Numbered from the stretch's first letter, positions 35,422 to 50,826 are shown. The stretch is DNA of 64,000 bases from an uncultured Chloroflexia bacterium (GCA_963814375.1 CAWFCQ010000007.1:96001-160000); one strand, 5' to 3'. The notes: generated by a model from the letters alone, not told the origin. A program made the numbers and translations.

Positions 35422-35423
35422 GC

Positions 35424-35822
35424 TCAGGCCTCCTCGATCCAGCCCGTGGCCTCCTCCTGGCGATCTCGGCCACCGAAGTCCTCGCGCACCCACGCCATGA
35501 GCCGCGCGGGTCCGAGCGCAATGGCCAGGCAGGCTCCGATCATGAGCAGCGGCCCGAGCATGCCCTCCGCGTGAGCTCGCGGCAGCACGGCCGCCCAGAT
35601 GGCGGTACCCGCCAGGGCTGCGACCTCGGTGCGTCCGAGGCGGAGTGCGACGAGCATCAGCGCCGATGGGATCGCCAGCCATCCCTCCGGCTGCCCGGCT
35701 ACGAGGGCCATCACCCCGGCCATGCCCCCGACGCCGACTGTCAGCCCGAGAACGGCGCGAGTCAGCGCTGATACCTCGTCCGAGGCATCGCGGCGCCTCG
35801 CGGAGAGTGCGGCCCAGACCAT
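35424..35822 (-). CDS. Hypothetical membrane protein (about 4 TM)
   Basis: Hydrophobic 132-aa ORF that fills the gap. TAGACT about 9 nt upstream of the ATG. Confidence 0.6.
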   Translation of the reverse strand: MVWAALSARRRDASDEVSALTRAVLGLTVGVGGMAGVMALVAGQPEGWLAIPSALMLVALRLGRTEVAALAGTAIWAAVLPRAHAEGMLGPLLMIGACLAIALGPARLMAWVREDFGGRDRQEEATGWIEEA

Positions 35823-36113
35823 GAGGGAACGAGTCTACGACCGTGGCGTCGCGGGATCCACGCCCCGCATACGCCCGGCGTACCGACCAATCTCCGCCTG
35901 GACGCCCGTTCGGGCGCCGAGTGCTCGCTCCAGCGGGCACCGATGAGCACGAATGGCGCGTCCGCGCGCCCGTCAGGCGTCCCAGCGCTCGCTCCAGCGC
36001 GCGAACGCCTCCGGACAAGGCATGGCGCGAAGGACGCCCGGTCAAGCGAGCGGCAGCGAGGGCTACCGACGGTGTGCTGTAATCGGTCCACCAAATACGG
36101 AGCTGAGGGCCGG

Positions 36114-37448
36114 ATGGCGATCGAGACCGAGCGAGGGGCGATGACGGGCGACGAGATCGTCGCGCTCACCAAGCGCCACACCCTGTTCGAGTGGTCGGCG
36201 CAGTCCAAGGTCGATCCCATCCCGGTGGCCGGCGCGAAGGGGGTCTACTTCTGGACGCCCGAGGGCAAGCGGTTCCTCGACTTCAACTCGCAGCTGATGT
36301 GCACGAACATCGGCCACGGGCATCCGAAGGTGATCGCCGCCATCCAGGCGCAGGCCGAGCAGCTGGCCTACGCGAACCCGTTCATGGCCACCGAGCCGCG
36401 GGCGCGCCTTGGACAGAAGCTGGCCGAGATCACGCCCGGCGACATCGACACCTTCTTCTTCACCAACGGCGGCGCAGAGGCGAACGAGAACGCGATCAAG
36501 CTGGCCCGATTCGTCACCGGCCGCCACAAGATCCTGACGCGCTACCGCTCGTACCACGGCGGCACGGCCGGCGCCATCAGCCTGACCGGCGACCCGCGCC
36601 GCTGGGCTGCCGAGCCGGGCATCCCCGGCGTGGTGCGCGTGCTCGACCCGTATCACGGCATCCAGCGCGGCTGGGACACCGCCGACGAGGCCCTCGCGAA
36701 CCTGGAGGAGACGATCCAGCTCGAGGGGCCGAACACGATCGCCGCCTTCATCCTCGAGACTGTCACCGGCACGAACGGCATCCTCGTTCCGCCGGACGGC
36801 TACATCGCCGGCGTGCGCGAGATCTGCGATCGCTACGGGATCATGATGATCGCCGACGAGGTGATGGCCGGCTTCGGGCGCACCGGCAAATGGTTCGCGG
36901 TCGATCACTGGGACGTGGTTCCCGACCTGATCACCATGGCCAAGGGCCTCACCAGCGCCTATGTCCAGCTCGGCGCCCTCGGCATGCGACGCAAGTACGC
37001 CGAGCACTTCACCGACAAGGTCTTCTACGGCGGCCTGACCTACAACTCGCACCCGCTGGCGTGTGCGACGGCCCTTGCCACGATCGCCGTCTACGAGGAG
37101 GAGAACCTCATCGAGCGCGCGGCGCAGATGGGCGAGGTGCTGAAGCAGCACCTATCGACGCTGGCCGACCGGCACCCGAGCATCGGCGCGACGCGCAGCA
37201 TCGGCCTCTTCGGCATCGTCGAGCTGGTCCGCGATCGAACCACCATGGAGCCGATGGCGCCCTTCAACGGCACATCGGACGAGATGGCGGCACTGGGCAG
37301 GAGATTCCGCGAGGAGGGCCTCTACACCTTCGTGCGCTGGAACACGTTCTTCACCAACCCGCCGCTCATCATCACGGAAGAGGAGATGGCCGAGGGCTTC
37401 GCGATCATTGATCGCGCCCTCGAGGCGACCGATGCCGCCGTCGGCTGA
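36114..37448 (+). CDS. Class III (omega-amino acid) aminotransferase, probable beta-alanine aminotransferase
   Basis: FLDFNSQLMCTNIGH, FFTNGGAEANENA, SYHGGT, IADEVMAGFGRTG, PDLITMAKGL and GLTYNSHP. Confidence 0.88.
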   Translation: MAIETERGAMTGDEIVALTKRHTLFEWSAQSKVDPIPVAGAKGVYFWTPEGKRFLDFNSQLMCTNIGHGHPKVIAAIQAQAEQLAYANPFMATEPRARLGQKLAEITPGDIDTFFFTNGGAEANENAIKLARFVTGRHKILTRYRSYHGGTAGAISLTGDPRRWAAEPGIPGVVRVLDPYHGIQRGWDTADEALANLEETIQLEGPNTIAAFILETVTGTNGILVPPDGYIAGVREICDRYGIMMIADEVMAGFGRTGKWFAVDHWDVVPDLITMAKGLTSAYVQLGALGMRRKYAEHFTDKVFYGGLTYNSHPLACATALATIAVYEEENLIERAAQMGEVLKQHLSTLADRHPSIGATRSIGLFGIVELVRDRTTMEPMAPFNGTSDEMAALGRRFREEGLYTFVRWNTFFTNPPLIITEEEMAEGFAIIDRALEATDAAVG

Positions 37449-38304
37449 GCGCCACGGCTGGCCCCGGCGCACGGCCACCTTCGTGGCCTTCGTCGTTCTC
37501 GCCCTCCTCGTCTGGGAGGTTCTGAAGTTCATCGGCGGCGATCCGTGGCGCTACTTCGGCTGGGAATGGCATCCGCCGCTCGAGATCTGGTTCGCCACCG
37601 ACCTTCGGCTGCCGCACGTGTGGGAGATCGGCGGAGCGCTGGTGAACCCGGTCCAGCGCAGCGCGGACGAGAGCCTGGCCCAGTTTCTGGCAGGCGCTGC
37701 CTTCTACACCTGGCGTGAGGCCGCGATCGGCTTCATCGCCGGAACCGTCATCGGCATCTCACTGGCCGCCGTCTTCGTGCACTCTGGCGTGCTCGAGCGC
37801 GCGTTCGTTCCCTACGTGATTGTCAGCCAGACGATCCCGATCGTGGCGCTCGCGCCGATGATCGTCTTCGCGTTCGGCCAGGACGTGACGAGCGTGGTCA
37901 TCATCGCCACCTACCTGACCTTCTTCCCGGTCACGATCGCGATGATCCGCGGCCTGCGGTCGCCGGATCCGCGCGCCCTCGAGCTCATGCGCAGCTACGC
38001 GGCGTCGAAGTGGAGCATCTTCTGGAAGCTGCGCATGCCCGCCTCGCTGCCGTATCTCTTCACCGCTCTGAAGATCGCGGCGACCGCCAGCATCGTCGGT
38101 GCGATCGTCGGTGAAGGGCCCGGTGGCATCCCCGATGGGCTGGGCCGCGCGATCATCAACTTCAACAACCAGTACGTGTCGGGCCCGGAGAAGCTGTGGG
38201 CCGCGATCGTCGCCACGGCCGTGCTCGGCATCGTCTTCTTCAGCCTCGTTCGACTGACGGAGGCGGCCGTTCTCCGCGGCCGCCCGACGGTGGGCGATGG
38301 ATAA
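37432..38304 (+). CDS. ABC importer permease (NitT/TauT type)
   Basis: SQTIPIVALAP and EAA-like ELMRSYAASKWSIFWKLRMPASLPYLF. Confidence 0.88.
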   Translation: MPPSAERHGWPRRTATFVAFVVLALLVWEVLKFIGGDPWRYFGWEWHPPLEIWFATDLRLPHVWEIGGALVNPVQRSADESLAQFLAGAAFYTWREAAIGFIAGTVIGISLAAVFVHSGVLERAFVPYVIVSQTIPIVALAPMIVFAFGQDVTSVVIIATYLTFFPVTIAMIRGLRSPDPRALELMRSYAASKWSIFWKLRMPASLPYLFTALKIAATASIVGAIVGEGPGGIPDGLGRAIINFNNQYVSGPEKLWAAIVATAVLGIVFFSLVRLTEAAVLRGRPTVGDG

Positions 38305-39148
38305 CAGCACGGCAAAGCTCGACCCCGGGGCAAGCGTCGTCCGAGTCGACGGCGCGGGCAAGACCTTCGCATCGCACGGTGAGAAGGGCCGGACGACCGC
38401 GCTGGAAGGCATCGACCTGGACATCCGCCGCGGCGAGTTCGTCAGCCTGATCGGTCCGTCCGGATGCGGGAAAAGCACCCTGCTGCGCCTTATCGGCGAC
38501 CTGACGGCTCCCACCGCTGGGATCGTGAGCGTCAACGGCAAGGGCGCCCACGAGGCGCGATTGGGTCGCGAGTACGGCATCGTCTTTCAAGCTCCGGTCC
38601 TGTTCGAATGGCGGACCGTCGAGGACAACGTGAAGCTGCCGCTCGAGCTGATCGGCATGGAACGCCGTGGGCGCCAAGCGCGGGCGCGCGAGCTGCTGGA
38701 GCTGGTGGAGCTCGGCGACTTCATGCGGCACTACCCCTACCAGCTCTCGGGCGGGATGCAGCAACGTGTCGCCATCGCCCGCGCGCTTGCCCTGGAGCCG
38801 GCGCTTCTGCTGATGGACGAGCCGTTCGGCGCGCTCGACGAGATGACGCGTGAGCGGATGAACAGCGAGGTGCTGCGGATCTGGCGGCAGACCGGGACCA
38901 CGATCGTCTTCGTGACCCACTCGATCCCGGAGGCGGTCTTCCTGTCGACGCGGGTGGCGGTCATGAGCGCTCGCCCCGGACGCATCACGCACCTGGTCGA
39001 GGTCGATCTGCCGCAGCCCCGCAACGAGCTTACCCGCGAGGAACCGCGCTACTTCGAGCTCGTGACCGAGGTGCGCGAAGCCCTGCGCGGCAGAGGGCCC
39101 TCCGGCGCATCGGTCGAGCGGATGGCGGCCGAGGGCGGGATCGGCTGA
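38297..39148 (+). CDS. ABC importer ATP-binding subunit (NitT/TauT type)
   Basis: GPSGCGKST, LSGGMQQRV, LLMDEPFGALD and VTHSIPEAVFLS. Confidence 0.92.
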   Translation: MDNSTAKLDPGASVVRVDGAGKTFASHGEKGRTTALEGIDLDIRRGEFVSLIGPSGCGKSTLLRLIGDLTAPTAGIVSVNGKGAHEARLGREYGIVFQAPVLFEWRTVEDNVKLPLELIGMERRGRQARARELLELVELGDFMRHYPYQLSGGMQQRVAIARALALEPALLLMDEPFGALDEMTRERMNSEVLRIWRQTGTTIVFVTHSIPEAVFLSTRVAVMSARPGRITHLVEVDLPQPRNELTREEPRYFELVTEVREALRGRGPSGASVERMAAEGGIG

Positions 39149-39161
39149 TGGCGGCAGCCGG

Positions 39162-40001
39162 ATGATCGCCTCCCCGGACGCGGGGCCGGCACCCGGCCTC
39201 CCCCGCCGGCTCGGCGCGCGCCTCGGCTACTACCTGCCGGCCGTGCTCGTGCTCGTCGGTGGGCTCCTCGTGTGGGAGGTACTGACCCGGGTGCTCAGCG
39301 TCCGCGCATTCATCCTTCCGCCGCCGAGCGCCATCGGGTCGGCACTCGGGGAGAACTGGAGCGGTGGCACATGGTCACTCGCGCCCTCGGTCATCGCCAC
39401 GCTGACCGAAGCGATCGGTGGCCTGATCATCGGCACGGTCACCGGGGTCGCCGTCGGCTTTGCCGTGGCGCGTTGGGCCACAGCGCGGGAGTCGGTCCTG
39501 CCCATTGCCATCGCGGCCAACGCGATCCCGATCATCGCCATCGCGCCGATCTTCAACAACTGGTTCGGGGTCCTCAACCCGCTCTCGAAGATGATGATGG
39601 CGGCGCTCCTCGTCTTCTTCCCCGTGATGATCAACGTGACCCGCGGCCTCTCGCAGGTTGAGCCGGCGGCACTCGAGCTGATGCGGGCGTATGCCGCATC
39701 CGAGTGGACGGTGCTGGCGAAGGTCCGCGTCCCGAACGCCCTCCCGTACTTCCTGACTGCCCTCAAGGTCGCCACCACCCTCAGCTTGATCGGCGCCGTG
39801 GTGGGCGAGTACTTCGGCGGCACCACCCAGGTCATCGGGCGGGTGGTGGTGCAGAGCGCGAGCGCGCTGCGCTTCGACGTCACCTGGGCCGCGATCCTGC
39901 TCATGGCGATCGCCGGGGTCATCATGTACGTGGCGGTGCTCGTCATCGAGCGGCTGCTGATTCCATGGCATCCGTCACTTCGGGCGCACGATCACTCCTG
40001 A
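39162..40001 (+). CDS. ABC importer permease (NitT/TauT type)
   Basis: ILPPPSAI, IPIIAIAP and KVRVPNALPYF. Confidence 0.88.
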   Translation: MIASPDAGPAPGLPRRLGARLGYYLPAVLVLVGGLLVWEVLTRVLSVRAFILPPPSAIGSALGENWSGGTWSLAPSVIATLTEAIGGLIIGTVTGVAVGFAVARWATARESVLPIAIAANAIPIIAIAPIFNNWFGVLNPLSKMMMAALLVFFPVMINVTRGLSQVEPAALELMRAYAASEWTVLAKVRVPNALPYFLTALKVATTLSLIGAVVGEYFGGTTQVIGRVVVQSASALRFDVTWAAILLMAIAGVIMYVAVLVIERLLIPWHPSLRAHDHS

Positions 40002-40122
40002 CCGCACGCGGGTGGGCTCGATTCGCCAGCCGCCGTCGCACCGGCTCCGTAGAATGCGCGGATCAGATGAGCGGGTGTGGCGCAGCCGCCCCGCGCCCCT
40101 TTCCGGAAGCGAGGTCCGAGGG

Positions 40123-41265
40123 ATGAAGGTAACGCGCGCGTGGCCGGTGCTGGCCGCGGTCCTCACGCTGGTCCTGTCAGCGTGCCAGGCGGGAGATGGG
40201 GGCGAGAGCAGCGATGGGGGTGATGCCGAGCTGGACACCGTTCGCCTCCAGCTCCAGTGGGTGCCGCAGGCTCAGTTCGGCGGCTATTTCGCGGCGCAGG
40301 AGCTCGGCTACTACGAGGATGAGGGCCTCGACGTCGAACTCGTCGACGGCGGGCCTGAGGTGATCCCGCAGCAGGTGGGTTCGGCGGCAGACGGCCCGGA
40401 GTTCACGATCAGCTGGGTGCCCAAGGTGCTCCAGGCGCGCCTGGAGGAGTCCGACCTCGTCAACATCGCCCAGATCTTCCAGCGGGCCGGCACGCTCTCC
40501 GTCGCGTGGGCCGACTCGGGCATCGCGTCACCGGAGGACTTTGCCGACAAGAAGGTCGGCGTCTGGGACTTCGGCAACGAGCTGGAAGTCGTGGCCTCCG
40601 CCCGATTGGCAGGACTCGAGCCGGGCGAGGACTTCGAGGTCGTCATCCAGCCCTTCGACATGACGCTCCTCCTCAATGCCGTCGAGGGCTGCGAGGCGAG
40701 CGCCAGCGACTGCGTCGATGTTGCGGAGGCGATGATCTACAACGAGTACGCTCAGCTGCTCGAGACCGAGAATCCCGACACCGGCGAGCTCTACCAGCCC
40801 GATGACTTGAACGTCATCGACTACAACGAGGTCGGCACGGCGATGCTCCAGGACGCGCTCTTCGCGCGCGCCGACTGGCTTGCCCAGGAGGGCAACGAGG
40901 ACATCGCCGTCCGCTTCCTGCGGGCGTCGTTCCGCGGCTGGATCCACTGCCGTGACAACCCCGACGACTGCGTCCAGTACGTGACCGACGCCGGATCGAC
41001 GCTCGGCGCTGGGCACCAGGCTTGGATGATGAATGAGATCAACGCCCTCATCTGGCCTTCACCCAACAGCATCGGCGTCATGGACCCCGAGCTGTGGGCC
41101 CAGACCGTCGAGACCGCCATCGAGGCCGAGATCATCCCGGAGGCGCCGCCAGACGATGCCTACCGTACGGATCTGGCCGAGCAGGCGCTGGAGGGAATCG
41201 AGGAGGACACGACCGGGGAGGACTTCCAGAAGGAAGCCGTGGAGGTCACACCGGGCGGCGAATAA
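40123..41265 (+). CDS. ABC importer substrate-binding lipoprotein (NMT1/THI5-like)
   Basis: Lipobox LSAC, LQLQWVPQAQFGGYF, AMIYNE and HQAWMMNE. This SBP type binds pyrimidine-like ligands. TAGAAT promoter element at 40050. Confidence 0.85.
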   Translation: MKVTRAWPVLAAVLTLVLSACQAGDGGESSDGGDAELDTVRLQLQWVPQAQFGGYFAAQELGYYEDEGLDVELVDGGPEVIPQQVGSAADGPEFTISWVPKVLQARLEESDLVNIAQIFQRAGTLSVAWADSGIASPEDFADKKVGVWDFGNELEVVASARLAGLEPGEDFEVVIQPFDMTLLLNAVEGCEASASDCVDVAEAMIYNEYAQLLETENPDTGELYQPDDLNVIDYNEVGTAMLQDALFARADWLAQEGNEDIAVRFLRASFRGWIHCRDNPDDCVQYVTDAGSTLGAGHQAWMMNEINALIWPSPNSIGVMDPELWAQTVETAIEAEIIPEAPPDDAYRTDLAEQALEGIEEDTTGEDFQKEAVEVTPGGE

Positions 41266-41288
41266 GCCGATCGGTCTCTCCCGCAATC

Positions 41289-41320
41289 TCGCCCCTTCCC
41301 GGCCCGCCGGGGAGGGGCGA
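41289..41320. terminator. GC-rich hairpin between convergent genes (probable terminator)
   Basis: TCGCCCCTTCCCGG...CCGGGGAGGGGCGA stem. No U-tract. Confidence 0.5.
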
Positions 41321-41325
41321 TCGCG

Positions 41326-42594
41326 TCACACCAGGAACCGCAGCCACAGGTACACCGTGCTGATGAGCACGGTGGCGACCGTCACCGGCAGCCCGTAGCG
41401 AAGGAACGCCCCGAACGTGATCGGGTGCCCCTCGCGCTCGGCCATCGAGGCGAGGATCACATTGGCGCTCGCGCCGATGATCGTCATGTTGCCTCCGAGG
41501 TCCGCGCCGATGGCGAGTGCCCACCACAGGACGTCGGACTCATGACCCTCGGACAGCTGCTCAACGACCGGGAGCATCGTGGCCGTATATGGGATGTTGT
41601 CGATGATGCCGGACAGGATTGTCGAGACCCACAGGAGGAGGAACGCCGTCGCGCCCAGCGCTCCGCCGGTCACAGCGAGGATCGCGTCGGCAACCGCGTC
41701 GATGAGCCCGATCTCGATGACCCCGGCCACGAGCATGAAAAGGCCGATGAAGAAGAAGAGCGTCGGCCACTCGACCTCGCGCAGGACATCGTGCGGGTCC
41801 TCACGGGCGACGAGCATGAGGACGACGGCGCCGGTGAGAGCTATGGTCGCCGGCTCGAAGCCGACGATCCCGTGGACGAGGAAGCCCACGAGGGTCGCGC
41901 CCATGACGATGAGGGAAGAGCGCAGGAGCCGTGGGTCGGTGATCATCTCGCGCTCGTCGAGGGCGAGCAGCGTGTCACGTAGGTCTGGATCGGTGTCCAG
42001 CTGGCCGCGGAAAAGCCAGCGCGCCGCGATGAGGTAGAGCGTCAGCAGCAGGGCCGACAGCGGCGCCATGACGAGCAGGAAGTCGACGAAGTCGAGGCCT
42101 GCCGCGCTGCCGATCAGGATGTTGGGCGGATCGCCGATAAGCGTGGCGGCACCACCGATGTTGCTGGCCAAGATCTCGCTCACGAGGAGAGGAAACGGGC
42201 TCATCCCGAGTCGCGCTGCCAGGAAGAGCGTGATCGGTCCGACCAGGACGACGGTGGTGACGTTGTCCAGGAACGCGCTGGCGATGGCGGTGATGACGCT
42301 CAACACAACCAGGACCCGGTAGCCGTCTCCCCCCGCGAAGCGCGCAGCCCGCACTGCCAGCCAGCCGAAGACGCCAGTCTTCCGGATGATGCTGGCCAGG
42401 ATCATCATCCCGGCCAGGAGGAAGATGACGTTGAAGTCGATCGCCTCGAAGGCTTCCTCCTGAGTGATGATCCCGAGAAGCACCATCGTCACGCCGCCCG
42501 CCAGGGCCGCGATGGTCTTGTGGACGCGTTCGGTCGCAATGAGCCCGTAGGTGGCAATGAAGACCGCGAGGCCGGCGACGACCTCGAACGTCAT
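41326..42594 (-). CDS. ArsB/NhaD (IT superfamily) ion transporter
   Basis: About 12 TM; SAFLDNVTTV, SNIGGAATLIGDPPN, DNIPY and GGNMTIIGASAN. Confidence 0.9.
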   Translation of the reverse strand: MTFEVVAGLAVFIATYGLIATERVHKTIAALAGGVTMVLLGIITQEEAFEAIDFNVIFLLAGMMILASIIRKTGVFGWLAVRAARFAGGDGYRVLVVLSVITAIASAFLDNVTTVVLVGPITLFLAARLGMSPFPLLVSEILASNIGGAATLIGDPPNILIGSAAGLDFVDFLLVMAPLSALLLTLYLIAARWLFRGQLDTDPDLRDTLLALDEREMITDPRLLRSSLIVMGATLVGFLVHGIVGFEPATIALTGAVVLMLVAREDPHDVLREVEWPTLFFFIGLFMLVAGVIEIGLIDAVADAILAVTGGALGATAFLLLWVSTILSGIIDNIPYTATMLPVVEQLSEGHESDVLWWALAIGADLGGNMTIIGASANVILASMAEREGHPITFGAFLRYGLPVTVATVLISTVYLWLRFLV

Positions 42595-43118
42595 TGGTCG
42601 TGCTCGTGCTTCGGCTCCAGGAGACCCTCGCTACCAGTGGCACGCACCCAGACAAGCAACAGCTCCAGCTGGTCGACATAGCCCACGACGCGCCCTTCGT
42701 CGTCGGTGATCGGCACCCCGTTGAGCTTTGCGGCGTGCATCCGCTCGAAGGCATCGCGGACGGTCTCGTCGCGCCGCACCGAGACCGGCGGCAGCATGAC
42801 GTCGCCGGCAGTTCGGGCCCGGAGGTGCTGCGCGTACTTGAGTGCGCCCTCGAGATCGAGGATCTCGCCCAGGAACTCCTCCGGCACGATCTTGAGAAAG
42901 ATGTCGTTTACGAGGACGCGGATAGGGATGACTCCCATGAGTCTCATGTCGTCATCGGTAACCGCGATCACCCGGCAGCCGGTGTTGTCGACCGCCGCTT
43001 CGGCAACAGCTCGGAGGCTCACATCGGCGTGGACGACGACCGGTTCCATCCGCAGGATCGTGTCGGCCTCGGCGATCGGCGTGGTCTGGGTGATCGATTC
43101 TGGGGTCCGCTGAGCCAT
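42591..43118 (-). CDS. Tandem CBS-domain protein
   Basis: Two CBS repeats (VIAVTDDDMRLMGVI; VPITDDEGRVVGYV). ATGA overlap with the transporter. Confidence 0.88.
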   Translation of the reverse strand: MAQRTPESITQTTPIAEADTILRMEPVVVHADVSLRAVAEAAVDNTGCRVIAVTDDDMRLMGVIPIRVLVNDIFLKIVPEEFLGEILDLEGALKYAQHLRARTAGDVMLPPVSVRRDETVRDAFERMHAAKLNGVPITDDEGRVVGYVDQLELLLVWVRATGSEGLLEPKHEHDQ

Positions 43119-43119
43119 T

Positions 43120-43220
43120 GGCGACTCCGTAGCACATGAGGCTGCGCACGTGCGCAGCCTCCACCGTGGCGCCAGTGCTACGGGCTCGGCGCCTGAGCCC
43201 TCCCGGTCGAGACAGGACCC
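43120..43220 (-). ncRNA. Candidate cis-regulatory structured 5' leader (riboswitch-like) of the CBS-NhaD operon
   Basis: -10 TAGACT at 43230-43225. Hairpin GGGCUC/GAGCCC with a GGCGCC loop that can pair with a downstream GGCGCC (pseudoknot). An alternative 9-bp helix CCGUAGCAC/GUGCUACGG covers part of the RBS. An internal 24-nt perfect palindrome lies between them. Confidence 0.5.
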
Positions 43221-43267
43221 GTTGAGTCTAGCCGGACGCCCGGGAGGCGGTCGGTATCATCTCGCCC

Positions 43268-44944
43268 ATGCCGCCCAGCCGACCGATGACCGGGCTCGAG
43301 CTGACGCTCATCGTCGCCCTGGCGGCGGCGCTGGTCCTCGGCGCCATCGCCCACCGGCTTGGCGTGCCACCGATGGTCGGTTACGTGGTCGCCGGGCTGG
43401 TGGTCGGGCCGGCGACGCCCGGCTTCGTGGCCACCCGCGAAGACGTGCTCGCGCTTGCGGACGTGGGCGTGGCACTGCTGATGTTCAGCATCGGCCTTCG
43501 ATTCAGCCTCGCCGAGCTGCGCTCGGTCGGCGTGCGGATCCTGGCCGGCACGCCCGTCCAGGTCGCGGCCACCATGGCTATCGGGACGGGAACCGGCCTC
43601 GCGCTCGGTTGGCCGTTGGCCGAGGCGCTCTTCATCGGCGGAGCGCTGGCCGTGTGCTCGACCGTCGTGCTGTTCAAGATCGGCGGCGAGGACGCGCTGC
43701 ACACCACCTCGTACGGGCTCACCGCGCTCGGCGTGTCGATCGTCCAGGACCTGCTGACGATCGTGCTGGTCGTGGCGCTGTCCGCCCTCGGCTCGCGCGA
43801 GGACGAAGGGCTGGTGCCGGTCATCGTGCGGGGCGCCGTGGCACTCGGCTTCGTGACGTTGCTGGTTGTGGCCGGCTCCCGGCTGCTGCCGCGGCTGCTG
43901 GGCATGATCGCCGGCCTGCGGTCGCGCGAGCTGTTCGTCATCGGTGTCGCCGTCATCGCCATCGGCACCGCCTTCGCCGCCAGCGCGCTCGGCGTCAGCG
44001 TCGCGCTGGGAGCCTTCGTCGCCGGGCTCGCGCTCGCCGACTCGGACCTGACCGACAGCGTGCTGGGCGAGATCGTCCCGCTGCGCGAGCTGTTCGCGAC
44101 CTTCTTCTTCGTCTCGATCGGGATCCTCCTCCAGCCAGCGGCGATCCTGGCGGCCATTCCCGTGGTCGTGGCGCTGCTTCTCATCGTCACGCTCGGCAAG
44201 GCCGTCCCGATCGCGGCGCTGGCGCGGTTCGACGGACAGCGACCGTCATCGGCGCTGCGCGCCGGCGCGCTCGTCGGCCAGAGCGGCGAGTTCAGCTTCG
44301 TGCTGGCCTCGACCGGCCTGGCGCTGGGTGCCGTCGGGCCGGACTCGTTCAGCCTGGCAATGGGGGCAGTGGTCATCTCGATCCTGACCGCCGAGCCGCT
44401 CCTCGCGGGGGCGAGCCGGCTGGGGGATTGGCTCGACACCCGGGCACGACTCCCCGACATGCCCGGCGAGGAGCCGGCGAACCTGCGCCGGCACGCGGTG
44501 ATCCTGGGCTACGGGCGAGTCGGACGCTCCGTGGCCCGCGTGCTGGGGTCGCGCGGCTTCGCATGGGTCGCCGTCGAGGGCGACTACCACGTCGCGCGCG
44601 AGGCGCGGTTGGCCGGGGCCTCGGTCGTGTTCGGCGAGGCAGGCACACCGTCGGTGCTGGACCGCGCCAGCGTCGCCGATGCCCACGCGCTGATCGTCGC
44701 CATCCCCGATGCGCTCGCGACGCGCCAGGCGATCACCTACGCGCGCGGCCGGAACCCTCGCCTGGACGTCGTGGCTCGCGCCCACTCGGAGGCGGAGGAG
44801 ACGGACCTGCGGCGGCTCGGCGCGATGCGTGTCGTGGTCGCCGAGCGAGAGCTCGGGAACGAGCTCATTCGCCACGCCCTGCGACGCTTCGGCGTCAGCG
44901 ACCGGGAGGTCGCCGCCATCCTCGAGTCCCGCCGCCGCGTTTGA
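43268..44944 (+). CDS. CPA2 cation:proton antiporter with TrkA-N domain (KefB/YbaL-like)
   Basis: PPMVGYVVAG, LLMFSIGL, IVQDL, FFFVSIG, GQSGEFSFV and ILGYGRVG. Confidence 0.9.
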   Translation: MPPSRPMTGLELTLIVALAAALVLGAIAHRLGVPPMVGYVVAGLVVGPATPGFVATREDVLALADVGVALLMFSIGLRFSLAELRSVGVRILAGTPVQVAATMAIGTGTGLALGWPLAEALFIGGALAVCSTVVLFKIGGEDALHTTSYGLTALGVSIVQDLLTIVLVVALSALGSREDEGLVPVIVRGAVALGFVTLLVVAGSRLLPRLLGMIAGLRSRELFVIGVAVIAIGTAFAASALGVSVALGAFVAGLALADSDLTDSVLGEIVPLRELFATFFFVSIGILLQPAAILAAIPVVVALLLIVTLGKAVPIAALARFDGQRPSSALRAGALVGQSGEFSFVLASTGLALGAVGPDSFSLAMGAVVISILTAEPLLAGASRLGDWLDTRARLPDMPGEEPANLRRHAVILGYGRVGRSVARVLGSRGFAWVAVEGDYHVAREARLAGASVVFGEAGTPSVLDRASVADAHALIVAIPDALATRQAITYARGRNPRLDVVARAHSEAEETDLRRLGAMRVVVAERELGNELIRHALRRFGVSDREVAAILESRRRV

Positions 44945-45095
44945 TGGGGCGCCCGCGCACCGTTGACGCAGTGTTGACCGGGCCGCGGCGAGACGCTTCA
45001 CGCGGCTCGGCGTAGAATCGGCGGCGCGCAGTCAGCCGGACTCCCGAGCGCCGGCGTCCTTCAGCGCATCACCGAAGGATCCGAGGGAGATCACT

Positions 45096-46925
45096 TTGAC
45101 CGGACGCAAGCTCTTCGCCGTGCCCATTGCGGTACTCATCGCCCTTGCCGCCGTCCTCGGCGGCGGGGCCGCGGCTCTCGCCAAGAACGACAAGCCGCCC
45201 GTCATCAAGAACGGCCGGCAGGTCGAGGTCCAGATCCTCGCCCTGAACGACTTCCACGGGAACGTCCTGCCGCCGGCCGGCTCGAGTGGCCGTGTCGGAC
45301 CTGCCGTCGGTGGCACGATCGCCGGTGGCGCGGAGTATCTCGCCACCCATGTCGCCAACTTGGAGAAGACGAACAGGAACACCATCGTCGTCTCGGCCGG
45401 CGACCTCATCGGCGCCAGCCCCATCCTCTCCGCGCTGTTCCATGACGAGCCGACGATCGAGGCGATGAACCTCATCGGTCTCGACCTCAACGCGGTCGGC
45501 AACCACGAGTTCGACGAGGGCGCCACCGAGCTGCTGCGGATGCAGAACGGCGGATGCCACCCCGTCGACGGCTGCCAGGACGGCACCGGCTTTGCGGGAG
45601 CCGACTTCGACTTCCTCGCGGCGAACGTCGTCAACGAGGCGACCGGCGCGACCCTCTTCGCCCCGTACAGCATCCGGAACTTCAACGGCGCCAAGGTGGC
45701 GTTCATCGGCATGACCCTCGAGGGCACGCCGAACATCGTCAGCCCGTCGGGCGTCGCCGGCTATGACTTCCGCGACGAGGCCGACACCGTCAACGCGCTC
45801 ATCCCGGCCATCCGGGCACAGGGCGTCGAGGCCGTCGTCGTGCTCCTGCACGAAGGCGCCACGCCGTCAGGCACCGTCACCGCCGCCAGCATCAACCAGT
45901 GCGGTGCCAACAACGCCGGCATCAGCGGGCCGATCATCGACATCGCGACCCGCCTCGACAGCGAGGTCGACCTCCTCATCTCCGGCCACACCCACCAGCC
46001 CTACACCTGCGTGGTCGACGGCCTGCCGGTGACGAGCGCCTACTCGTTCGGCCGCCTCCTGACCGACATCGACATGACCGTCGACAAGGGGACCAAGGAC
46101 GTCACCAAGCTCACGATCAACAACCGGATCGTCACGCGGGACGTCCCGAAGGACGCCCGCATCAGCGACCTGATCGCGCGCTACCAGGTGTTCGAGGCGC
46201 CGATCGCTAACCGTGTCATCGGTCACATGCAGGTTCCGGCCGGCTGCGACCCGCTCGCCGCGGGGGCCACGTGCGCCGACATCACGACGGCCAACGACGA
46301 CTCCAAGGAGCAGTCGATGGGCAACGTGATCGCCGATGCCCAGCTGGCAGCGACCGATGATGCCGGCACCGGACAGGCGGTGGTCAGCTTCATGAACCCC
46401 GGTGGCGTGCGCGCCAACCTCAACTACCTGTCGAGCTCGGCGGGCGAGGGCAACGGGGTAATCACCTACGGCGAGCTGTTCACGGTCCAGCCGTTCGGCA
46501 ACTCGCTGGTGACGATGACGCTGACCGGGGCGCAGATCGAGCGGATGCTCGAGCAGCAGTTCTGCGGGTTGAACTCGCCCGCCAACACGTTCTTCCACAA
46601 GGTGCTGCTGCCGTCGGCTGGCTTCAGCTACACGTGGGACCTCTCGGCTGCCGACTCGGCGGCCGGGGCGAACTGCGCCACGGCCGATGCGGTCAATCCC
46701 GCCTCGATCACCCTCAACGGGGCGCCGCTGAGCATGACGGGGACGTATCGCGTCACCGTCAACAGCTTCCTGGCCGAGGGTGGTGACGGCTTCCCGGTCT
46801 TCGTCGAGGGCACGAATCGCCTCGGCGGGGCCGTCGACACCGATGCCTTCGAGGCCTACCTGGCGGCTGCCGAGCCGGCCGGGATCCTCCCCGCACCGCG
46901 CAACCGCATCAACGTCGTTCCGTAG
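45096..46925 (+). CDS. Secreted bifunctional metallophosphatase/5'-nucleotidase
   Basis: Signal peptide; NDFHG, SAGDLIG, VGNHEFD, LLHEG, SGHTH, FMNPGGVRA, VQPFGN and NSFLAEGGDGF. Confidence 0.9.
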   Translation: MTGRKLFAVPIAVLIALAAVLGGGAAALAKNDKPPVIKNGRQVEVQILALNDFHGNVLPPAGSSGRVGPAVGGTIAGGAEYLATHVANLEKTNRNTIVVSAGDLIGASPILSALFHDEPTIEAMNLIGLDLNAVGNHEFDEGATELLRMQNGGCHPVDGCQDGTGFAGADFDFLAANVVNEATGATLFAPYSIRNFNGAKVAFIGMTLEGTPNIVSPSGVAGYDFRDEADTVNALIPAIRAQGVEAVVVLLHEGATPSGTVTAASINQCGANNAGISGPIIDIATRLDSEVDLLISGHTHQPYTCVVDGLPVTSAYSFGRLLTDIDMTVDKGTKDVTKLTINNRIVTRDVPKDARISDLIARYQVFEAPIANRVIGHMQVPAGCDPLAAGATCADITTANDDSKEQSMGNVIADAQLAATDDAGTGQAVVSFMNPGGVRANLNYLSSSAGEGNGVITYGELFTVQPFGNSLVTMTLTGAQIERMLEQQFCGLNSPANTFFHKVLLPSAGFSYTWDLSAADSAAGANCATADAVNPASITLNGAPLSMTGTYRVTVNSFLAEGGDGFPVFVEGTNRLGGAVDTDAFEAYLAAAEPAGILPAPRNRINVVP

Positions 46926-46959
46926 GTCCTGCCGCTGAGCGGCAAGCCGAACCCTGGGT

Positions 46960-46993
46960 GGGCCGCCTCCTCGGAGGCGGCTCACTCTGTTTC
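46960..46993 (+). terminator. Probable intrinsic terminator
   Basis: GGGCCGCCTCC-TC-GGAGGCGGCTC stem followed by ACTCTGTTTC, between convergent genes. Confidence 0.55.
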
Positions 46994-47657
46994 AGTCGCC
47001 TTGCGGGCCTGCCCACGCCTCGTCGATGCGCTCGACCAGCTCGTCCAGGGATCGCACGACGAGGTGGGCGGCTCCGTCGGTGTCCTCCTGGAGAAACCCC
47101 CACGGCCCGCGCCGGATCCAGATCGCGCGCATCCCGGCGGCGGCCGCGGGCCTGACGTCGTTGTCGACCCTGTCGCCGACATAGGCCACCGCTCCCGCCT
47201 CCGGCGAGCCGATGAGCTCCAGGGTCCTCGCGAAGAACGCGCCGTCCGGCTTATGGAGGCCCATCGCGTCGCTCATGGCCATCGCCTCCACCTTCAGCCC
47301 GAGCGCCTCGAGCTCCTCGTGGCGGCGAGCCGGCTGGTTCGCGGTGATGGCGACCCGGTAGCCGCCGGCCTTCAGGCCATCGACGGCGCGGATCGCATCG
47401 GGATAGAGGTCATCGGCCCGGAGTGCGCCGAATCGCTCCTCGAACTCCGGCTGACGGTCGCGCCATTCGGGCCGCTGGAGCAGCTCGAAGAAGCGGCGCC
47501 AGTCATCGGGCTTCTCGCCGTTCGTGATCGAGCCGCCCAGGACCGCCATGAGCGTGAACTGGGGCAGGCCGAGAACCTCGGCCCAGGTGCGGAAGACGCG
47601 CGTCTCGTCCACGAGCGTCTCGCCGACGTCGAGGACGACCCATCGGTCACCGCTCAT
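46992..47657 (-). CDS. HAD family hydrolase
   Basis: VLDVGETLVDE, TANQP, HKPDGAFF and YVGDRVDND. Confidence 0.88.
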   Translation of the reverse strand: MSGDRWVVLDVGETLVDETRVFRTWAEVLGLPQFTLMAVLGGSITNGEKPDDWRRFFELLQRPEWRDRQPEFEERFGALRADDLYPDAIRAVDGLKAGGYRVAITANQPARRHEELEALGLKVEAMAMSDAMGLHKPDGAFFARTLELIGSPEAGAVAYVGDRVDNDVRPAAAAGMRAIWIRRGPWGFLQEDTDGAAHLVVRSLDELVERIDEAWAGPQGD

Positions 47658-47768
47658 CTCGTTGCCCTCTCGATTCGGACGCGCTGGAAACTGTCAGCCG
47701 ATATGTCACTAACGACATAACGCGTGATGGCGCGCGGCAGCGGTCGCCGCCTGCTCATCGGCGCCTGG

Positions 47769-49172
47769 CTAGGCTTGCTTCACCCCGGACACCAGGGCCT
47801 CGACTGAAGGCTTCGCGTCCCCGAACAGCATCTTCGTCTTCTCGTTGCTGAACAGCGGGTTCGGGATGCCGGCAAACCCGGTCCCACGACCGCGCTTCAG
47901 GACGATGATGTTCTGCGCCTGGTCGACGTTGAGGATCGGCATGCCGCTGATCGGCGAGCCCTCCTCGCGCGCGAGCGGGTTCACGACGTCGTTTGCGCCG
48001 ATGATGAGCGCGACGTCGGTATCGGCGAAGTCGTCGTTGATCTCGTCCATCTCCTGGAGGCGGTCGTACGGCACGTTCGCCTCCGCCAGGAGCACGTTCA
48101 TATGGCCGGGCATGCGGCCGGCGACCGGGTGGATCGCGAACTGGACGTCAACGCCCCTGGCGACGAGGAGGTCCATGAGCTCGCGCACCGGCCCCTGCGC
48201 CTGCGCAACCGCCATGCCGTAGCCGGGCACGATGATCACGCGCTTGCCGTAGGCCATGAGGACCGCGGCGTCCTCGGCGCCGATCTCGCGCAGCTGCTCC
48301 TCGCCCTCCGCTCCGGCGGCCGTCGCCTCGCCGCCGGTGCCGAATCCGGCGAAGAGGACGTTGAACAGCGAGCGGTTCATGGCCCTGCACATGAGCTGGG
48401 TGAGGATGGCGCCGGAAGCGCCGACCAGCGTGCCGGCGATGAGGAGCGCGTAGTTGCTCAGCACGAAGCCGGTCGCCGCCACCGCGATGCCGGTGTAGCT
48501 GTTGAGCAGCGACACCACGACCGGCATGTCCGCGCCGCCGATGGGCATGACCAGCTGCACGCCGAGGACGAGTGAAAGCCCGACGAACAGGAGGAAGAGC
48601 GGCGTGGACGGCTCGACCGCCGTCAGGTAGATGCCGATGGCGACGAGCGCCAGGGCGAGCGCCGCGGTCACCAGCTGCGAACCCGGGTACTTCACCGGCC
48701 GCGAGGCGATGACCCCCTGGAGCTTGCCCCAGGCGACGACGGAGCCGGTGAGCGAGACGGAGCCGATCACGGCACCAAGGAGGGTCGCGACGATGAACGC
48801 GAGCGGCAGCAGCTCGCCGGGATGGAGCTGGACGTCGCGCGTGAACTCGACGACCGCGACGAGCGCCGCCGCGCCGCCGCCGGCGCCATTGAAGATGGCG
48901 ACCATCTGCGGCATGGCGGTCATCGCCACGCGCTTTGCGCCGAGCCAGCCGGCAACGGAGCCGATGGCGCCGCCGAGCACGACGATCCACCAGTTGTCGA
49001 GCATGCCCTCGGTGGTGAAGAAGGTCCACGCCACCACGAGCGCCATGCCGGCCGCGCCGAGGAGGTTGCCGGTGCGCGCCGTCCTCGGACTGGCCAGGAA
49101 CTTGAGGGCGAGGATGAAGGTGACGCTGGCGACGAGCCAGACGAGGTAGGTCAGGATCTCGAGCGTGTCCAT
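47769..49172 (-). CDS. pntB: NAD(P) transhydrogenase subunit beta
   Basis: MTAMPQMVA, PIGGADMPVVVSLLNSYTG, VPGYGMAVAQAQ, HPVAGRMPGHMNVLLAEA and GANDVVNP. Confidence 0.95.
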   Translation of the reverse strand: MDTLEILTYLVWLVASVTFILALKFLASPRTARTGNLLGAAGMALVVAWTFFTTEGMLDNWWIVVLGGAIGSVAGWLGAKRVAMTAMPQMVAIFNGAGGGAAALVAVVEFTRDVQLHPGELLPLAFIVATLLGAVIGSVSLTGSVVAWGKLQGVIASRPVKYPGSQLVTAALALALVAIGIYLTAVEPSTPLFLLFVGLSLVLGVQLVMPIGGADMPVVVSLLNSYTGIAVAATGFVLSNYALLIAGTLVGASGAILTQLMCRAMNRSLFNVLFAGFGTGGEATAAGAEGEEQLREIGAEDAAVLMAYGKRVIIVPGYGMAVAQAQGPVRELMDLLVARGVDVQFAIHPVAGRMPGHMNVLLAEANVPYDRLQEMDEINDDFADTDVALIIGANDVVNPLAREEGSPISGMPILNVDQAQNIIVLKRGRGTGFAGIPNPLFSNEKTKMLFGDAKPSVEALVSGVKQA

Positions 49173-49478
49173 CTAGCGGCGATCCCCGCCCCGTCCCTTG
49201 AACATCTCGAGCATCCGATCCGTGACGGTGAAGCCGCCAACCACGTTGATCGTGCCGAGGATCACGGCGAGGAACGCGAGCACAATCGCGATCGGGGTGT
49301 CGGCGGTTGCGGCGACCAGCATCGCCCCCACCACGATGACGCCGTGGACGGCGTTGGCGCCGCTCATCAGCGGGGTATGGAGCATCGTCGGGACCTTCGA
49401 CACCACCTCGTAGCCGACGAATGCCGCAAGCACGAGGATGAAGAGGGCCGAGATCAGCTCGAAGGCGGAGAGCTCCAT
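49173..49478 (-). CDS. pntA: NAD(P) transhydrogenase alpha subunit part 2 (membrane)
   Basis: KVPTMLHTPLMSGANAVHG and NVVGGFTVTDRMLEMF. Confidence 0.93.
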   Translation of the reverse strand: MELSAFELISALFILVLAAFVGYEVVSKVPTMLHTPLMSGANAVHGVIVVGAMLVAATADTPIAIVLAFLAVILGTINVVGGFTVTDRMLEMFKGRGGDRR

Positions 49479-49482
49479 CGGT

Positions 49483-50670: not shown

Positions 50671-50826
50671 GGACAGTCTCTACACCGATGGGCATTCACG
50701 CCGCGAACCGCCGCAGCTCCTCCGAGAAGGGCGCATGGCGGTTCGGGATCCAGAGTGTAGCAGTCCACGCGACCGCCAGTAGAGCCGCACAGCGGCCGAA
50801 TGGCGACCATTGCACAATACGTTCGC

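What the first reader, a model, noticed from the sequence alone, without database searches (positions are those of the whole stretch)
43120..43230. Candidate ion- or nucleotide-sensing riboswitch: two mutually exclusive folds over the RBS of a CBS-NhaD/ArsB operon
Seen on the minus strand after -10 TAGACT: a small hairpin UCCUG/CGGGA, then hairpin GGGCUC-AGGCGCC-GAGCCC (43200-43182), then CCGUAGCAC (43183-43175) and UGGCGCC (43174-43168). The second GGCGCC can pair with the loop GGCGCC as an H-type pseudoknot. A perfect 24-nt palindrome follows (43161-43138), then GUGCUACGG (43135-43127), the exact complement of CCGUAGCAC, overlapping the GGAG RBS (43128-43125). State A: the pseudoknot forms and the RBS is free. 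State B: the 9-bp helix forms and the RBS is blocked. Known: Na+ (DUF1646), Li+ (nhaA-I/II), fluoride and c-di-AMP riboswitches control similar transporter genes. I cannot match this sequence to any of them from memory. Inference: a translational ON switch, possibly a new class or variant.
Basis: partly seen in the sequence, partly recalled or inferred. Interest (0 to 1): 0.8.

Follow-up and report, generated by a model that had tools for sequence, protein, structure and literature searches.

The report
Pseudoknot leader RNA before antiporter genes
A conserved, pseudoknotted stretch of messenger RNA sits in front of sodium/proton-antiporter genes in one family of uncultured Chloroflexota; it looks like an uncatalogued riboswitch whose trigger is still unknown.

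Summary
It is not a one-off. A covariance model built from relatives finds the same ~90-nt leader in 36 of 63 genomes of the genus. It finds it in 35 of 50 sampled genomes of the family, and almost nowhere else in the class or phylum. The bearers are labelled Candidatus Limnocylindria.

The pseudoknot was not part of the search model.

The 107 non-redundant copies precede at least nine gene classes, mostly cation/proton antiporters. No Rfam family matches.

What is conserved family-wide after P3 is a U-rich tract.

Verdict: a real, apparently undescribed riboswitch-like cis-regulatory RNA. The ligand (Na+ or another cation favoured) and the read-out are inferred, not shown.

The parts
43225..43230 (-). 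-10 box TAGACT of the leader's promoter
   Evidence: Read. A -10-like hexamer lies upstream of P1 in 92 of 107 copies, and it is TAGACT in 66 of them. The transcription start is assumed, not mapped.
43201..43217 (-). P0, an optional small 5' hairpin (UCCUG/CGGGA)
   Evidence: Read. Where at least 25 nt separate the -10 box from P1 (44 copies), the insert folds better than shuffles (mean z = -2.0; 34 of 44 below -1). In 14 copies P1 starts 7-8 nt after the -10 box, so there is no P0.
43182..43200 (-). P1 hairpin: 5' arm 43200-43195, loop 43194-43188, 3' arm 43187-43182
   Evidence: 5 of 6 pairs and 6 of 6 pairs show changes on both sides.
43188..43193 (-). Pseudoknot 5' strand (GGCGCC in the P1 loop)
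   Evidence: Pairs with 43173-43168. 6 of 6 pairs show double changes; 89.2% and 92.5% of cells pair. The pseudoknot was not part of models R1 or R2.
43174..43181 (-). L3 linker (GUAGCACU); family consensus N-U-A-(U/C/G)-C-N
   Evidence: U in 93, A in 96 and C in 96 of 97 copies at positions 2, 3 and 5. In the window it also forms the 5' strand of the state-B helix.
43168..43173 (-). Pseudoknot 3' strand (GGCGCC)
43163..43167 (-). Junction J (ACGGU); family consensus R-A-G-G-U
   Evidence: GG in 97 of 97 copies and U in 93 of 97.
43137..43162 (-). P3 hairpin: 5' arm GGAGGCUGCGC 43162-43152, loop 43151-43148, 3' arm 43147-43137.
   Evidence: 98.4% of cells pair and 8 of 11 pairs show double changes. 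The 5' arm GGAG.CUGCG is nearly invariant. Many G.U pairs make the stem strand-specific.
43119..43136 (-). Tail holding the state-B 3' strand (43135-43127) and the RBS GGAG (43128-43125)
   Evidence: Family-wide, the first 10 nt after P3 hold 4.8 U on average, against a 15% T background. The window's copy holds 3.
42591..43118 (-). CBS-domain protein gene (175 aa), the first gene of the controlled operon
   Evidence: Pfam CBS, E = 2.2e-15.
41326..42594 (-). CitMHS/ArsB/NhaD-like transporter gene (422 aa); it overlaps the CBS stop codon
   Evidence: Pfam CitMHS, E = 4.7e-94, and ArsB, E = 1.5e-28. All NCBIfam hits are below their cut-offs.

Best explanation
The 5' leader of the CBS/NhaD-like operon is a member of an undescribed family of cis-regulatory RNAs, found in one family of Candidatus Limnocylindria (Chloroflexota).

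Its conserved core is an H-type pseudoknot: stem P1, with the P1 loop paired to a hexamer about 8 nt downstream, and a 6-nt linker N-U-A-N-C-N. A junction R-A-G-G-U follows, then an 11-bp hairpin P3 whose 5' arm GGAG.CUGCG is almost invariant, then a U-rich tract, then the RBS and start codon about 24 nt later.

I read the pseudoknot, junction and P3 base as a ligand-binding aptamer, that is, a riboswitch. It would report the cell's monovalent-cation state (Na+ most likely; Li+, K+/NH4+ or pH are possible) and switch on cation/proton antiporter genes.

In the window's own copy the read-out is probably translational. With the pseudoknot formed, the linker is occupied and the RBS is free. Without it, the linker pairs with GUGCUACGG and covers half of the GGAG.

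In most other members the read-out is more likely P3 plus its U-rich tract acting as a regulated terminator, or P3's CUCC arm competing for the RBS.

Shown: the family, its structure, its position and its gene associations. Inferred: ligand binding, the identity of the ligand, the direction of the switch, and the read-out.
For: Structure:
- On 79 matches, P1 has double changes in 5 of 6 pairs, the pseudoknot in 6 of 6 and P3 in 8 of 11. Overall 93.0% of cells pair, against 82.9% shuffled (0 of 500 shuffles reach it) and 43-49% with partners slid.
- The result repeats on 76 matches from named public records: P1 6 of 6, pseudoknot 6 of 6, pseudoknot 92.5% paired.
- The pseudoknot was absent from both models, so its support does not come from model fitting.
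- There are 61 distinct pseudoknot strand combinations among 107 copies.
- By my sum of the pair-type counts, about 200 of 1736 cells are G.U. These would be A.C mismatches on the other strand, so the structure is RNA on the strand of the downstream gene.
- Unpaired positions are nearly invariant: linker U-A-.-C and junction G-G-U.

Position:
- A -10-like hexamer lies upstream in 92 of 107 copies.
- An ORF start lies 7-91 nt after P3 (median 24) in 105 of 107 copies.

Regulon:
- CBS (+NhaD-like) 42; CPA2 37 plus 1 disrupted; CPA1/NhaP-like 11; NfeD(+SPFH) 6; NhaD/ArsB-like directly 3; MrpA-like 2; lactate-permease family 2; Na_Ca_ex 1; bestrophin-like 1; unknown 1.
- There are up to 3 copies per genome.

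Not a known family: no Rfam match at the motif in the window or in 20 diverse loci. RF03071 (Sodium), RF03057 (nhaA-I) and RF00379 (c-di-AMP) give 0 matches in the window's genome.

The usual protein partners were not found: CsrA in 0 of 41 family genomes, and Hfq in 0 of 1.

Window's own switch:
- State B is -45.4 kcal/mol. State A is -37.8 plus a pseudoknot duplex of up to -11.7.
- RBS P(unpaired) rises from 0.17 to 0.59 when the aptamer is sequestered, the second largest rise of 100.
- Close kin keep the helix through an A-U to G-C change.
Against: - No ligand, binding or expression data exist. No RNA run holds the stretch.
- No conserved alternative pairing was found family-wide. Native versus cross-species pairs: linker x tail 48 of 107, pseudoknot 3' strand x tail 42 of 107, P3 3' arm x tail 41 of 107, upstream x P3 5' arm 39 of 107. 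RBS unmasking is no larger than in chimeras (42 of 100; p = 0.29). A riboswitch without a demonstrable expression platform is only a candidate.
- The U-rich tract is interrupted and weak as a terminator. Hairpin-plus-U-tract sites are no commoner than hairpin-plus-A-tract sites in this genome (78 against 66 of 9047), so classical intrinsic termination may be little used here.
- The family is narrow (one bacterial family), and the sequences are related MAGs, so the counts overstate independence.
- NfeD and lactate-permease genes do not obviously fit a Na+ signal.
- The organism has a diadenylate cyclase, so c-di-AMP cannot be excluded as the ligand.
Confidence: 0.55

Rival explanations
1. The leader is a conserved binding site for an unknown RNA-binding protein or a trans-acting RNA. 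That factor, not a small ligand, sets translation or termination of the antiporter genes.
For: - The invariant GGAG in the P3 5' arm and a second GGAG at the RBS, 35-45 nt apart, resemble paired protein sites.
- No conserved alternative fold was found. This fits a factor that simply masks or unmasks the RBS.
Against: - CsrA was not found in 0 of 41 family genomes, 40 of them at least 90% complete. Hfq was not found in the window's genome.
- No regulator gene travels with the motif. The downstream genes belong to at least 9 unrelated classes.
- A covarying pseudoknot with invariant unpaired nucleotides is more elaborate than typical protein operators on RNA.
Confidence: 0.2
2. The pseudoknot is a physico-chemical sensor without a specific pocket. 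Its stability follows pH, ionic strength or temperature, and this alone shifts the leader between folds.
For: - The controlled genes are the ones needed for alkaline-pH and salt homeostasis.
- In the window the two states are close in estimated energy.
- From general knowledge, not from a call: pseudoknot loops with conserved C residues can form protonation-dependent triples.
Against: - The near-invariance of the linker, the junction and the P3 base is more than bulk stability would need.
- The pseudoknot varies from 4 to 8 bp among members, so its stability is not held constant.
Confidence: 0.12
3. It is a riboswitch, but for a metabolite or second messenger (for example c-di-AMP) rather than an elemental cation.
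For: - The genome encodes a DAC-domain diadenylate cyclase and has no match to the known c-di-AMP riboswitch RF00379.
- From general knowledge: CBS-domain proteins and CPA2 cation/proton antiporters are known c-di-AMP targets in other bacteria.
Against: - Mrp, NhaP-like, NhaD-like and Na_Ca_ex genes are typical of Na+ handling, not of known c-di-AMP regulons.
- A pseudoknot core of about 50 nt is small next to the known c-di-AMP aptamer, whose model has 134 positions.
Confidence: 0.1
4. It is a constitutive structural element: a 5' stabiliser, a processing site, or a fixed leaky terminator that merely damps expression without sensing anything.
For: - P3 appears to form regardless of the pseudoknot sequence, since there is no covariation between them.
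- A U-rich tract follows P3 in 94 of 107 copies (at least 4 U in 10 nt), against 406 of 9047 hairpins in the genome.
Against: - A stabiliser or terminator needs neither a covarying pseudoknot nor invariant unpaired bases.
- The motif is restricted to ion-transport operons and missing from 27 of 63 genomes of the genus.
- Some motif-less relatives put the same gene directly behind the same promoter.
Confidence: 0.06
5. The palindromes (P1 and P3) are DNA operators for a dimeric transcription factor in the divergent promoter region between the CPA2 gene and the CBS operon.
For: - The element lies in a 149-bp divergent intergenic region.
- In the window, P3 is a perfect 24-bp palindrome.
Against: - In most relatives P3 is not a DNA palindrome. 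U.G occurs in 59 and G.U in 39 of 79 sequences at two adjacent pairs.
- Both arms change together while the sequence is not conserved (P1, pseudoknot).
- The motif keeps its orientation and its distance to the downstream start codon.
- It occurs without the divergent CPA2 gene, for example upstream of NfeD, Mrp and LctP genes.
Confidence: 0.02

Closest known systems
Na+-I riboswitch (DUF1646 motif, Rfam RF03071 'Sodium')
   Same: - It is a cis-acting 5' leader before non-homologous genes for Na+-related transporters, including 'kefB'/NapA-like CPA2 and nhaD genes (PMC9337991 and PMC9646797, passages read).
- ON logic is expected.
   Different: - No model match in the window, in 20 relatives' loci or in the genome.
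- Na+-I is described as two stems, P1 and P2, with conserved bases at the foot of P1 and in the P2 loop. This motif is an H-type pseudoknot plus a separate hairpin.
- The taxa differ: the Na+-I examples in the passages are from Firmicutes, while this motif is in Limnocylindria.
Li+-I / Na+-II (nhaA-I, RF03057) and Li+-II (nhaA-II) riboswitches
   Same: They are leaders of Na+/H+ antiporter genes that sense an alkali cation and activate expression (PMC9646797, passages).
   Different: - No model match.
- They associate chiefly with nhaA. None of the gene classes found here is NhaA.
- The word 'pseudoknot' occurs 0 times in that paper's text.
Small H-type pseudoknot aptamers (fluoride/crcB, preQ1-I, SAM-II, guanidine-III)
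   Same: They share the architecture class: a pseudoknot of about 50 nt close to the RBS or a terminator, and the fluoride class senses an ion. This comparison is recalled from general knowledge and comes from no call.
   Different: - No Rfam family of any kind matches.
- The conserved nucleotides (U-A-.-C linker, AGGU junction, GGAG.CUGCG stem) and the obligatory extra hairpin P3 are particular to this motif.
c-di-AMP riboswitch (ydaO/kimA, RF00379)
   Same: It controls cation transport and osmotic-response genes (PMC5737381, passage). The organism makes c-di-AMP.
   Different: - No match in the genome.
- The known aptamer model has 134 positions. This core is about 90 nt including P3.
pH-responsive 5' leader (PRE of E. 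coli alx)
   Same: It is a leader RNA that changes fold with alkaline stress and controls a membrane transporter. This is recalled, not from a call.
   Different: PRE works through transcriptional pausing on a long leader without a covarying pseudoknot (recalled). No Rfam match was found here.

Membership tests
Na+-I riboswitch (RF03071) | Scores above the family's gathering threshold (40.5 bits) with the Rfam covariance model | tested here: not met
   No match at E <= 10 in window 42800-43600. None at E <= 1 in 20 relatives' loci. 0 matches in the whole genome, while the control genome (Lactococcus lactis) did match.
Na+-I riboswitch (RF03071) | Two-stem P1/P2 architecture with conserved bases at the P1 base and in the P2 loop | tested here: not met
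   The structure found here is P1 + pseudoknot + P3. The description of Na+-I comes from passages of PMC9337991. Its figures and supplements were not seen.
Na+-I riboswitch (RF03071) | Selective 1:1 binding of Na+ | not testable with these tools
   Needs in-line probing or ITC.
Li+-I / Na+-II (nhaA-I, RF03057) | Match to the covariance model (gathering threshold 37 bits) | tested here: not met
   0 matches in the genome, while the control genome (Caulobacter vibrioides) did match.
Li+-I / Li+-II | Predominant association with nhaA genes | tested here: not met
   None of the 107 downstream genes was assigned to NhaA. Classes were set by N-terminal signatures, and one or two representatives per class were checked with Pfam.
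c-di-AMP riboswitch (RF00379) | Match to the covariance model (gathering threshold 38 bits) | tested here: not met
Riboswitch (generic kind) | Conserved structured domain in a 5' UTR, supported by covariation | tested here: met
Riboswitch (generic kind) | Association with several non-homologous genes of one physiological theme | tested here: met
   At least 9 gene classes, mostly cation/proton antiporters.
Riboswitch (generic kind) | Expression platform with mutually exclusive pairings | tested here: inconclusive
   Present and near-isoenergetic in the window and 3 close kin. No family-wide co-evolution was found.
Riboswitch (generic kind) | Direct ligand binding that changes gene expression | not testable with these tools
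   No biochemical or expression data; no RNA run is listed.
Intrinsic terminator (reading of P3) | G+C-rich stem directly followed by a U tract | tested here: inconclusive
   - 11-bp stem; 94 of 107 copies have at least 4 U in the next 10 nt (mean 4.8), against 4.5% of 9047 genomic hairpins.
- The tract is interrupted, and the window's copy has 3.
- The simple scan calls no terminator here.

The most novel reading that the evidence does not exclude
This is a new riboswitch class. Its aptamer is a compact H-type pseudoknot docked to the base of a conserved hairpin. It directly senses an alkali cation (Na+; perhaps K+/NH4+) or proton activity. It governs a small regulon of cation/proton antiporters (CPA1, CPA2, NhaD-like, Mrp, CaCA) plus NfeD/SPFH and a bestrophin-like channel. 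It is known so far only from uncultured Limnocylindria.
Probability: 0.45. Interest if true: 0.8.

Novelty: new variant of a known kind. Interest (0 to 1): 0.7.

Why it matters
Only a few RNA sensors of alkali cations are known: Na+-I, Na+-II, Li+-I and Li+-II. How RNA tells Na+, Li+ and K+ apart is an open structural question, stated as such in PMC9646797 (passage). A further, architecturally unrelated pseudoknot class tied to five antiporter families would help in two ways. It would give an independent solution to compare. It would also give a ~90-nt construct small enough for structure work.

It would annotate function for poorly named transporters (the CBS + NhaD-like pair, NfeD/SPFH, the bestrophin-like protein) in Limnocylindria. 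No cultured member appeared among the record titles I saw. It also shows that riboswitch discovery in MAG-only lineages is still productive.

If the trigger turns out to be a protein or bulk ionic strength, the motif is still a clean marker of the ion-homeostasis regulon of this family.

Tried and rejected
- **Known RNA family.** Rfam scans with permissive thresholds on the window and on 20 diverse loci found nothing at the motif. The best window hit, ftsZ-DE, scored 19.5 bits against a gathering score of 72.2 and covers only the P3 hairpin.
- **Repeated or mobile element.** The palindrome core is unique in the genome.
- **DNA operator.** Rejected on the strand-specific G.U pairs.
- **Family-wide state-B helix and other alternative pairings** (native versus cross-species duplex energies). 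None beats cross pairs: linker x tail 48 of 107, pseudoknot 3' strand + junction x tail 42, P3 3' arm x tail 41, P1 5' arm + loop x tail 51, upstream 45 nt x junction + P3 5' arm 39, upstream x P3 3' arm + tail 59, upstream x tail 53. The positive controls worked: pseudoknot 97 of 107 and P1 92 of 107.
- **P0 test.** A fixed-window test for P0 (49 of 107) was badly designed. It was replaced by the test.
- **Upstream ORF in P3.** Start codons in the P3 loop occur in some copies only (seen by eye) and are not conserved.
- **CsrA and Hfq as partners.** Neither was found.
- **Members outside the family.** There were 3 weak hits among 140 other Chloroflexota genomes. Of the two I looked at, one is a P3-like piece only and the other has non-pairs in P1. 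The single hit in family f2 (L096) precedes a short unidentified ORF and a tRNA and is left as doubtful. 8 of the 80 pattern hits lack the full motif; they come from other phyla.
- **Rows dropped before the counts on 107 copies.** L098, L099, L145, L129, L081:254-342 and L079:254-342, as weak or partial matches.
- **Expression data.** No RNA holder is listed.
- **Promoter/terminator scan of 34000-53000.** 0 promoters and 4 terminator-like sites, against 4.2 expected. Uninformative.
- **Earlier findings of this scan.** None for this genome.
- **Literature.** 0 papers hold both 'riboswitch' and 'Limnocylindria'. Searches for riboswitch/Chloroflexi/antiporter/pseudoknot and for Na+-II/K+/sodium/potassium riboswitch listed nothing that describes this motif. 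Supplements of PMC5737381, PMC9337991 and PMC9646797 (motif alignments, gene tables) could not be seen and might list rare variants.

Full report
**Observation.** The window's minus strand between 43230 and 43116 reads as follows:
- TAGACT (43230-43225)
- a small hairpin UCCUG/CGGGA (43217-43201)
- GGGCUC-AGGCGCC-GAGCCC (43200-43182)
- GUAGCACU
- GGCGCC (43173-43168)
- ACGGU
- a hairpin that contains a perfect 24-nt palindrome (43161-43138)
- U-GUGCUACGG-AG (43136-43125)
- ATG at 43118

The region is a 149-bp divergent spacer. On the plus strand a CPA2 antiporter gene with a TrkA_N domain starts at 43268. On the minus strand a CBS-domain gene (43118-42591) is followed, with overlapping stop and start, by a CitMHS/ArsB/NhaD-like transporter gene (42594-41326).

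On its own the leader folds only moderately better than shuffles (z = -2.38). The palindrome is unique in the 2.5-Mb genome.

**Conservation.** A DNA search of 41 related genomes found the spacer conserved in the genus. Notably, the same leader precedes a different gene in some genomes, a second CPA2 antiporter.
- I aligned 11 leaders (A1) and built a covariance model holding only P1 and P3 (R1).
- R1 matched 36 of 63 genomes of the genus, including 7 of 13 high-quality ones.
- A second model (R2) was run on an even sample of the class. It matched 35 of 50 genomes of the window's family (8 of 13 sampled genera), 1 of 49 weakly in a second family, and 0 of 51 in three others.
- In a phylum sample it matched 7 of 10 family members and only 3 of 140 others, all near the threshold. 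The two of these I inspected are not members.
72 of them carry the full motif, and nearly all of these are titled Candidatus Limnocylindria, Limnocylindrales or Chloroflexota. The other 8, from other phyla, have at most the P3-like piece.

Four genomes used in A1-A3 are flagged unpublished: G006, G047, G048 and G150. The structural result was therefore repeated on A4, which holds only named public records.

**Structure.** On A3 (79 matches) I counted pairs for P1, P3 and the pseudoknot between the P1 loop and the downstream hexamer.
- 93.0% of cells pair, against 82.9% in shuffles (0 of 500 reach it) and 43-49% with partners slid.
- Double changes occur in 5 of 6 P1 pairs, 6 of 6 pseudoknot pairs and 8 of 11 P3 pairs.
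- On A4 (76 matches), P1 gives 6 of 6 and the pseudoknot 6 of 6, with 92.5% of pseudoknot cells paired.
- P3 is constant in A4 by construction, because the loci were picked by a P3 pattern.
- The alignments were fitted to P1 and P3, which favours those two helices. The pseudoknot was in neither model, so its support is independent of the fit.

Among 107 non-redundant copies there are 61 different pseudoknot strand combinations, for example GGCACC/GGUGCC, GACGCC/GGCGUC, GACCGG/CCGGUC and CGUGUC/GACACG. The linker is usually 6 nt with U, A and C fixed at positions 2, 3 and 5. The junction ends in an invariant G-G-U. The P3 5' arm GGAG.CUGCG is almost invariant.

By my sum of the pair-type counts, about 200 of the 1736 cells are G.U. 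So the helices exist only on the strand of the downstream gene. This is RNA, not a DNA operator. In the window P3 happens to be all Watson-Crick, which is why it looks like a DNA palindrome.

**Position and genes.** A -10-like hexamer lies upstream in 92 of 107 copies. In 14 copies P1 begins 7-8 nt after it, so the RNA starts essentially at P1.

An ORF starts 7-91 nt after P3 (median 24) in 105 of 107 copies. I classed the first genes by N-terminal signature (the 18 left over were assigned by eye). Representatives of each class were checked with Pfam.

| First downstream gene | Copies |
|---|---|
| CBS protein (followed by the NhaD-like transporter where I looked) | 42 |
| CPA2 | 37, plus 1 disrupted |
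| CPA1/NhaP-like | 11 |
| NfeD (followed by an SPFH gene in L092) | 6 |
| NhaD/ArsB-like directly | 3 |
| MrpA-like | 2 |
| lactate-permease family | 2 |
| Na_Ca_ex | 1 |
| bestrophin-like | 1 |
| unknown | 1 |

Some genomes carry two or three copies before different operons.

**Comparison with known families.**
- No Rfam family matches at permissive thresholds, in the window or in 20 diverse members.
- The sodium (RF03071), nhaA-I (RF03057) and c-di-AMP (RF00379) models find nothing in the genome, while their control genomes do match.
- The passages I read in the Na+ and Li+ riboswitch papers and in the 224-motif paper describe hairpin-based motifs from other phyla. None describes this one.
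- Text searches found no paper linking riboswitches with Limnocylindria, and nothing equivalent under related terms.

**Mechanism, what holds and what does not.**
- State B (9-bp helix CCGUAGCAC/GUGCUACGG, with P3 and a shortened P1) evaluates to -45.4 kcal/mol.
- State A (P0, P1, P3) evaluates to -37.8, plus a pseudoknot duplex worth up to -11.7 before loop penalties.
- Sequestering the aptamer raises the predicted unpaired probability of the RBS window from 0.17 to 0.59.
- The three closest relatives keep the helix through an A-U to G-C exchange.

This is a clade feature, though.
- The window's helix is the strongest of 104 (-17.6). Its three kin follow (-13.8, -13.3, -10.9), and the median is -6.0.
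- Native linker/tail pairs beat cross-species pairs in only 48 of 107 copies, while the positive controls give 97 and 92 of 107.
- Natural leaders do not unmask the RBS more than chimeras do (42 of 100; p = 0.29).
- No other alternative pairing showed co-evolution.

What is conserved family-wide after P3 is a U-rich, A-poor tract. It holds 4.8 U in the first 10 nt against a 15% background, and 94 of 107 copies have at least 4. Only 406 of 9047 strong hairpins in the genome reach that.

P3 plus this tract resembles an intrinsic terminator with an interrupted U run. But such sites are not enriched in this genome at all (78 with at least 5 U, against 66 with at least 5 A). So I cannot tell whether termination is the read-out. 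A third possibility is the classic three-part platform. P3's 5' arm (GGAG) mimics the RBS, and its 3' arm (CUCC) is an anti-RBS. If the aptamer pulled the invariant AGGUGGAG away, CUCC could capture the true RBS.

**Ligand.** The gene set is what one expects for Na+ (or Li+) extrusion and alkaline-pH homeostasis, so an alkali cation is my first guess.
- pH or ionic strength acting directly on the pseudoknot is a real alternative.
- So is c-di-AMP, since the genome has a DAC cyclase and no known c-di-AMP riboswitch.
- CsrA (0 of 41 family genomes) and Hfq were not found. This weakens the common protein-mediated models but does not exclude them.

**Verdict.** The pseudoknot and the "new class" suspicion are supported. 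The specific RBS-masking helix is a local expression platform at best. The feature is a real, well-supported and apparently undescribed riboswitch-like leader family. It is restricted to one family of Limnocylindria among the genomes searched.

**Limits.**
- All genomes are MAGs, and kin are not independent.
- E-values of R1 and R2 are rough.
- The transcription start is assumed.
- The pseudoknot energy is an approximation.
- There is no expression or binding evidence (no RNA holder listed).

Noticed in passing
window 43247-43270 (+): The divergent CPA2/TrkA_N gene (ATG 43268) has a -10-like TATCAT ending 7 nt before its ATG. The block is conserved in relatives, seen as GATCATACCGG on the other strand. 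The gene is probably expressed as a leaderless mRNA and is not under the motif's control.
   Followed up: partly
L012, L019, L021: Members of the genus that lack the motif keep the TAGACT promoter but place the second CPA2 gene directly behind it on a short leader. The motif has therefore been lost or gained within the genus. 27 of 63 genomes have no match.
   Followed up: partly
L013 / L027:1126-1220: In one genome the CPA2 gene behind a perfectly good motif copy is disrupted: the open frame after the start codon is short. The same contig carries a second copy before an MrpA-like gene.
   Followed up: no
L060:14-1546: A 511-aa ORF behind the motif has a Na_H_Exchanger N-terminal part and a CitMHS/ArsB-like C-terminal piece. 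It may be a gene fusion, a frameshift or an assembly join.
   Followed up: no
L014, L020/L024, L028: In several genus members a third GGCGCC (or GGCGCG) follows the -10 box directly, at the presumed 5' end of the transcript. Because the hexamer is self-complementary, it could compete with either pseudoknot strand. This is unexplained.
   Followed up: no
L103, L111, L161, L165: Four loci with the complete motif come from records titled Steroidobacteraceae, Dormiibacterota or Pleomorphomonadaceae. This suggests that the labels of those bins do not fit these contigs.
   Followed up: no
whole genome G000; window 34000-53000: Strong hairpins followed by a U tract are no more frequent than hairpins followed by an A tract (78 against 66 of 9047). 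Classical intrinsic terminators seem rare in this organism.
   Followed up: partly
L092:1736-3400: The NfeD gene behind the motif is followed by an SPFH/Band-7 gene. This puts an NfeD-stomatin pair in the same regulon as the antiporters.
   Followed up: partly
window 40012-41265 (+) and 45096-46925 (+): Neighbouring genes are an NMT1/THI5-like protein, convergent with the transporter gene, and a 5'-nucleotidase/metallophosphatase. No link to the motif was seen.
   Followed up: no
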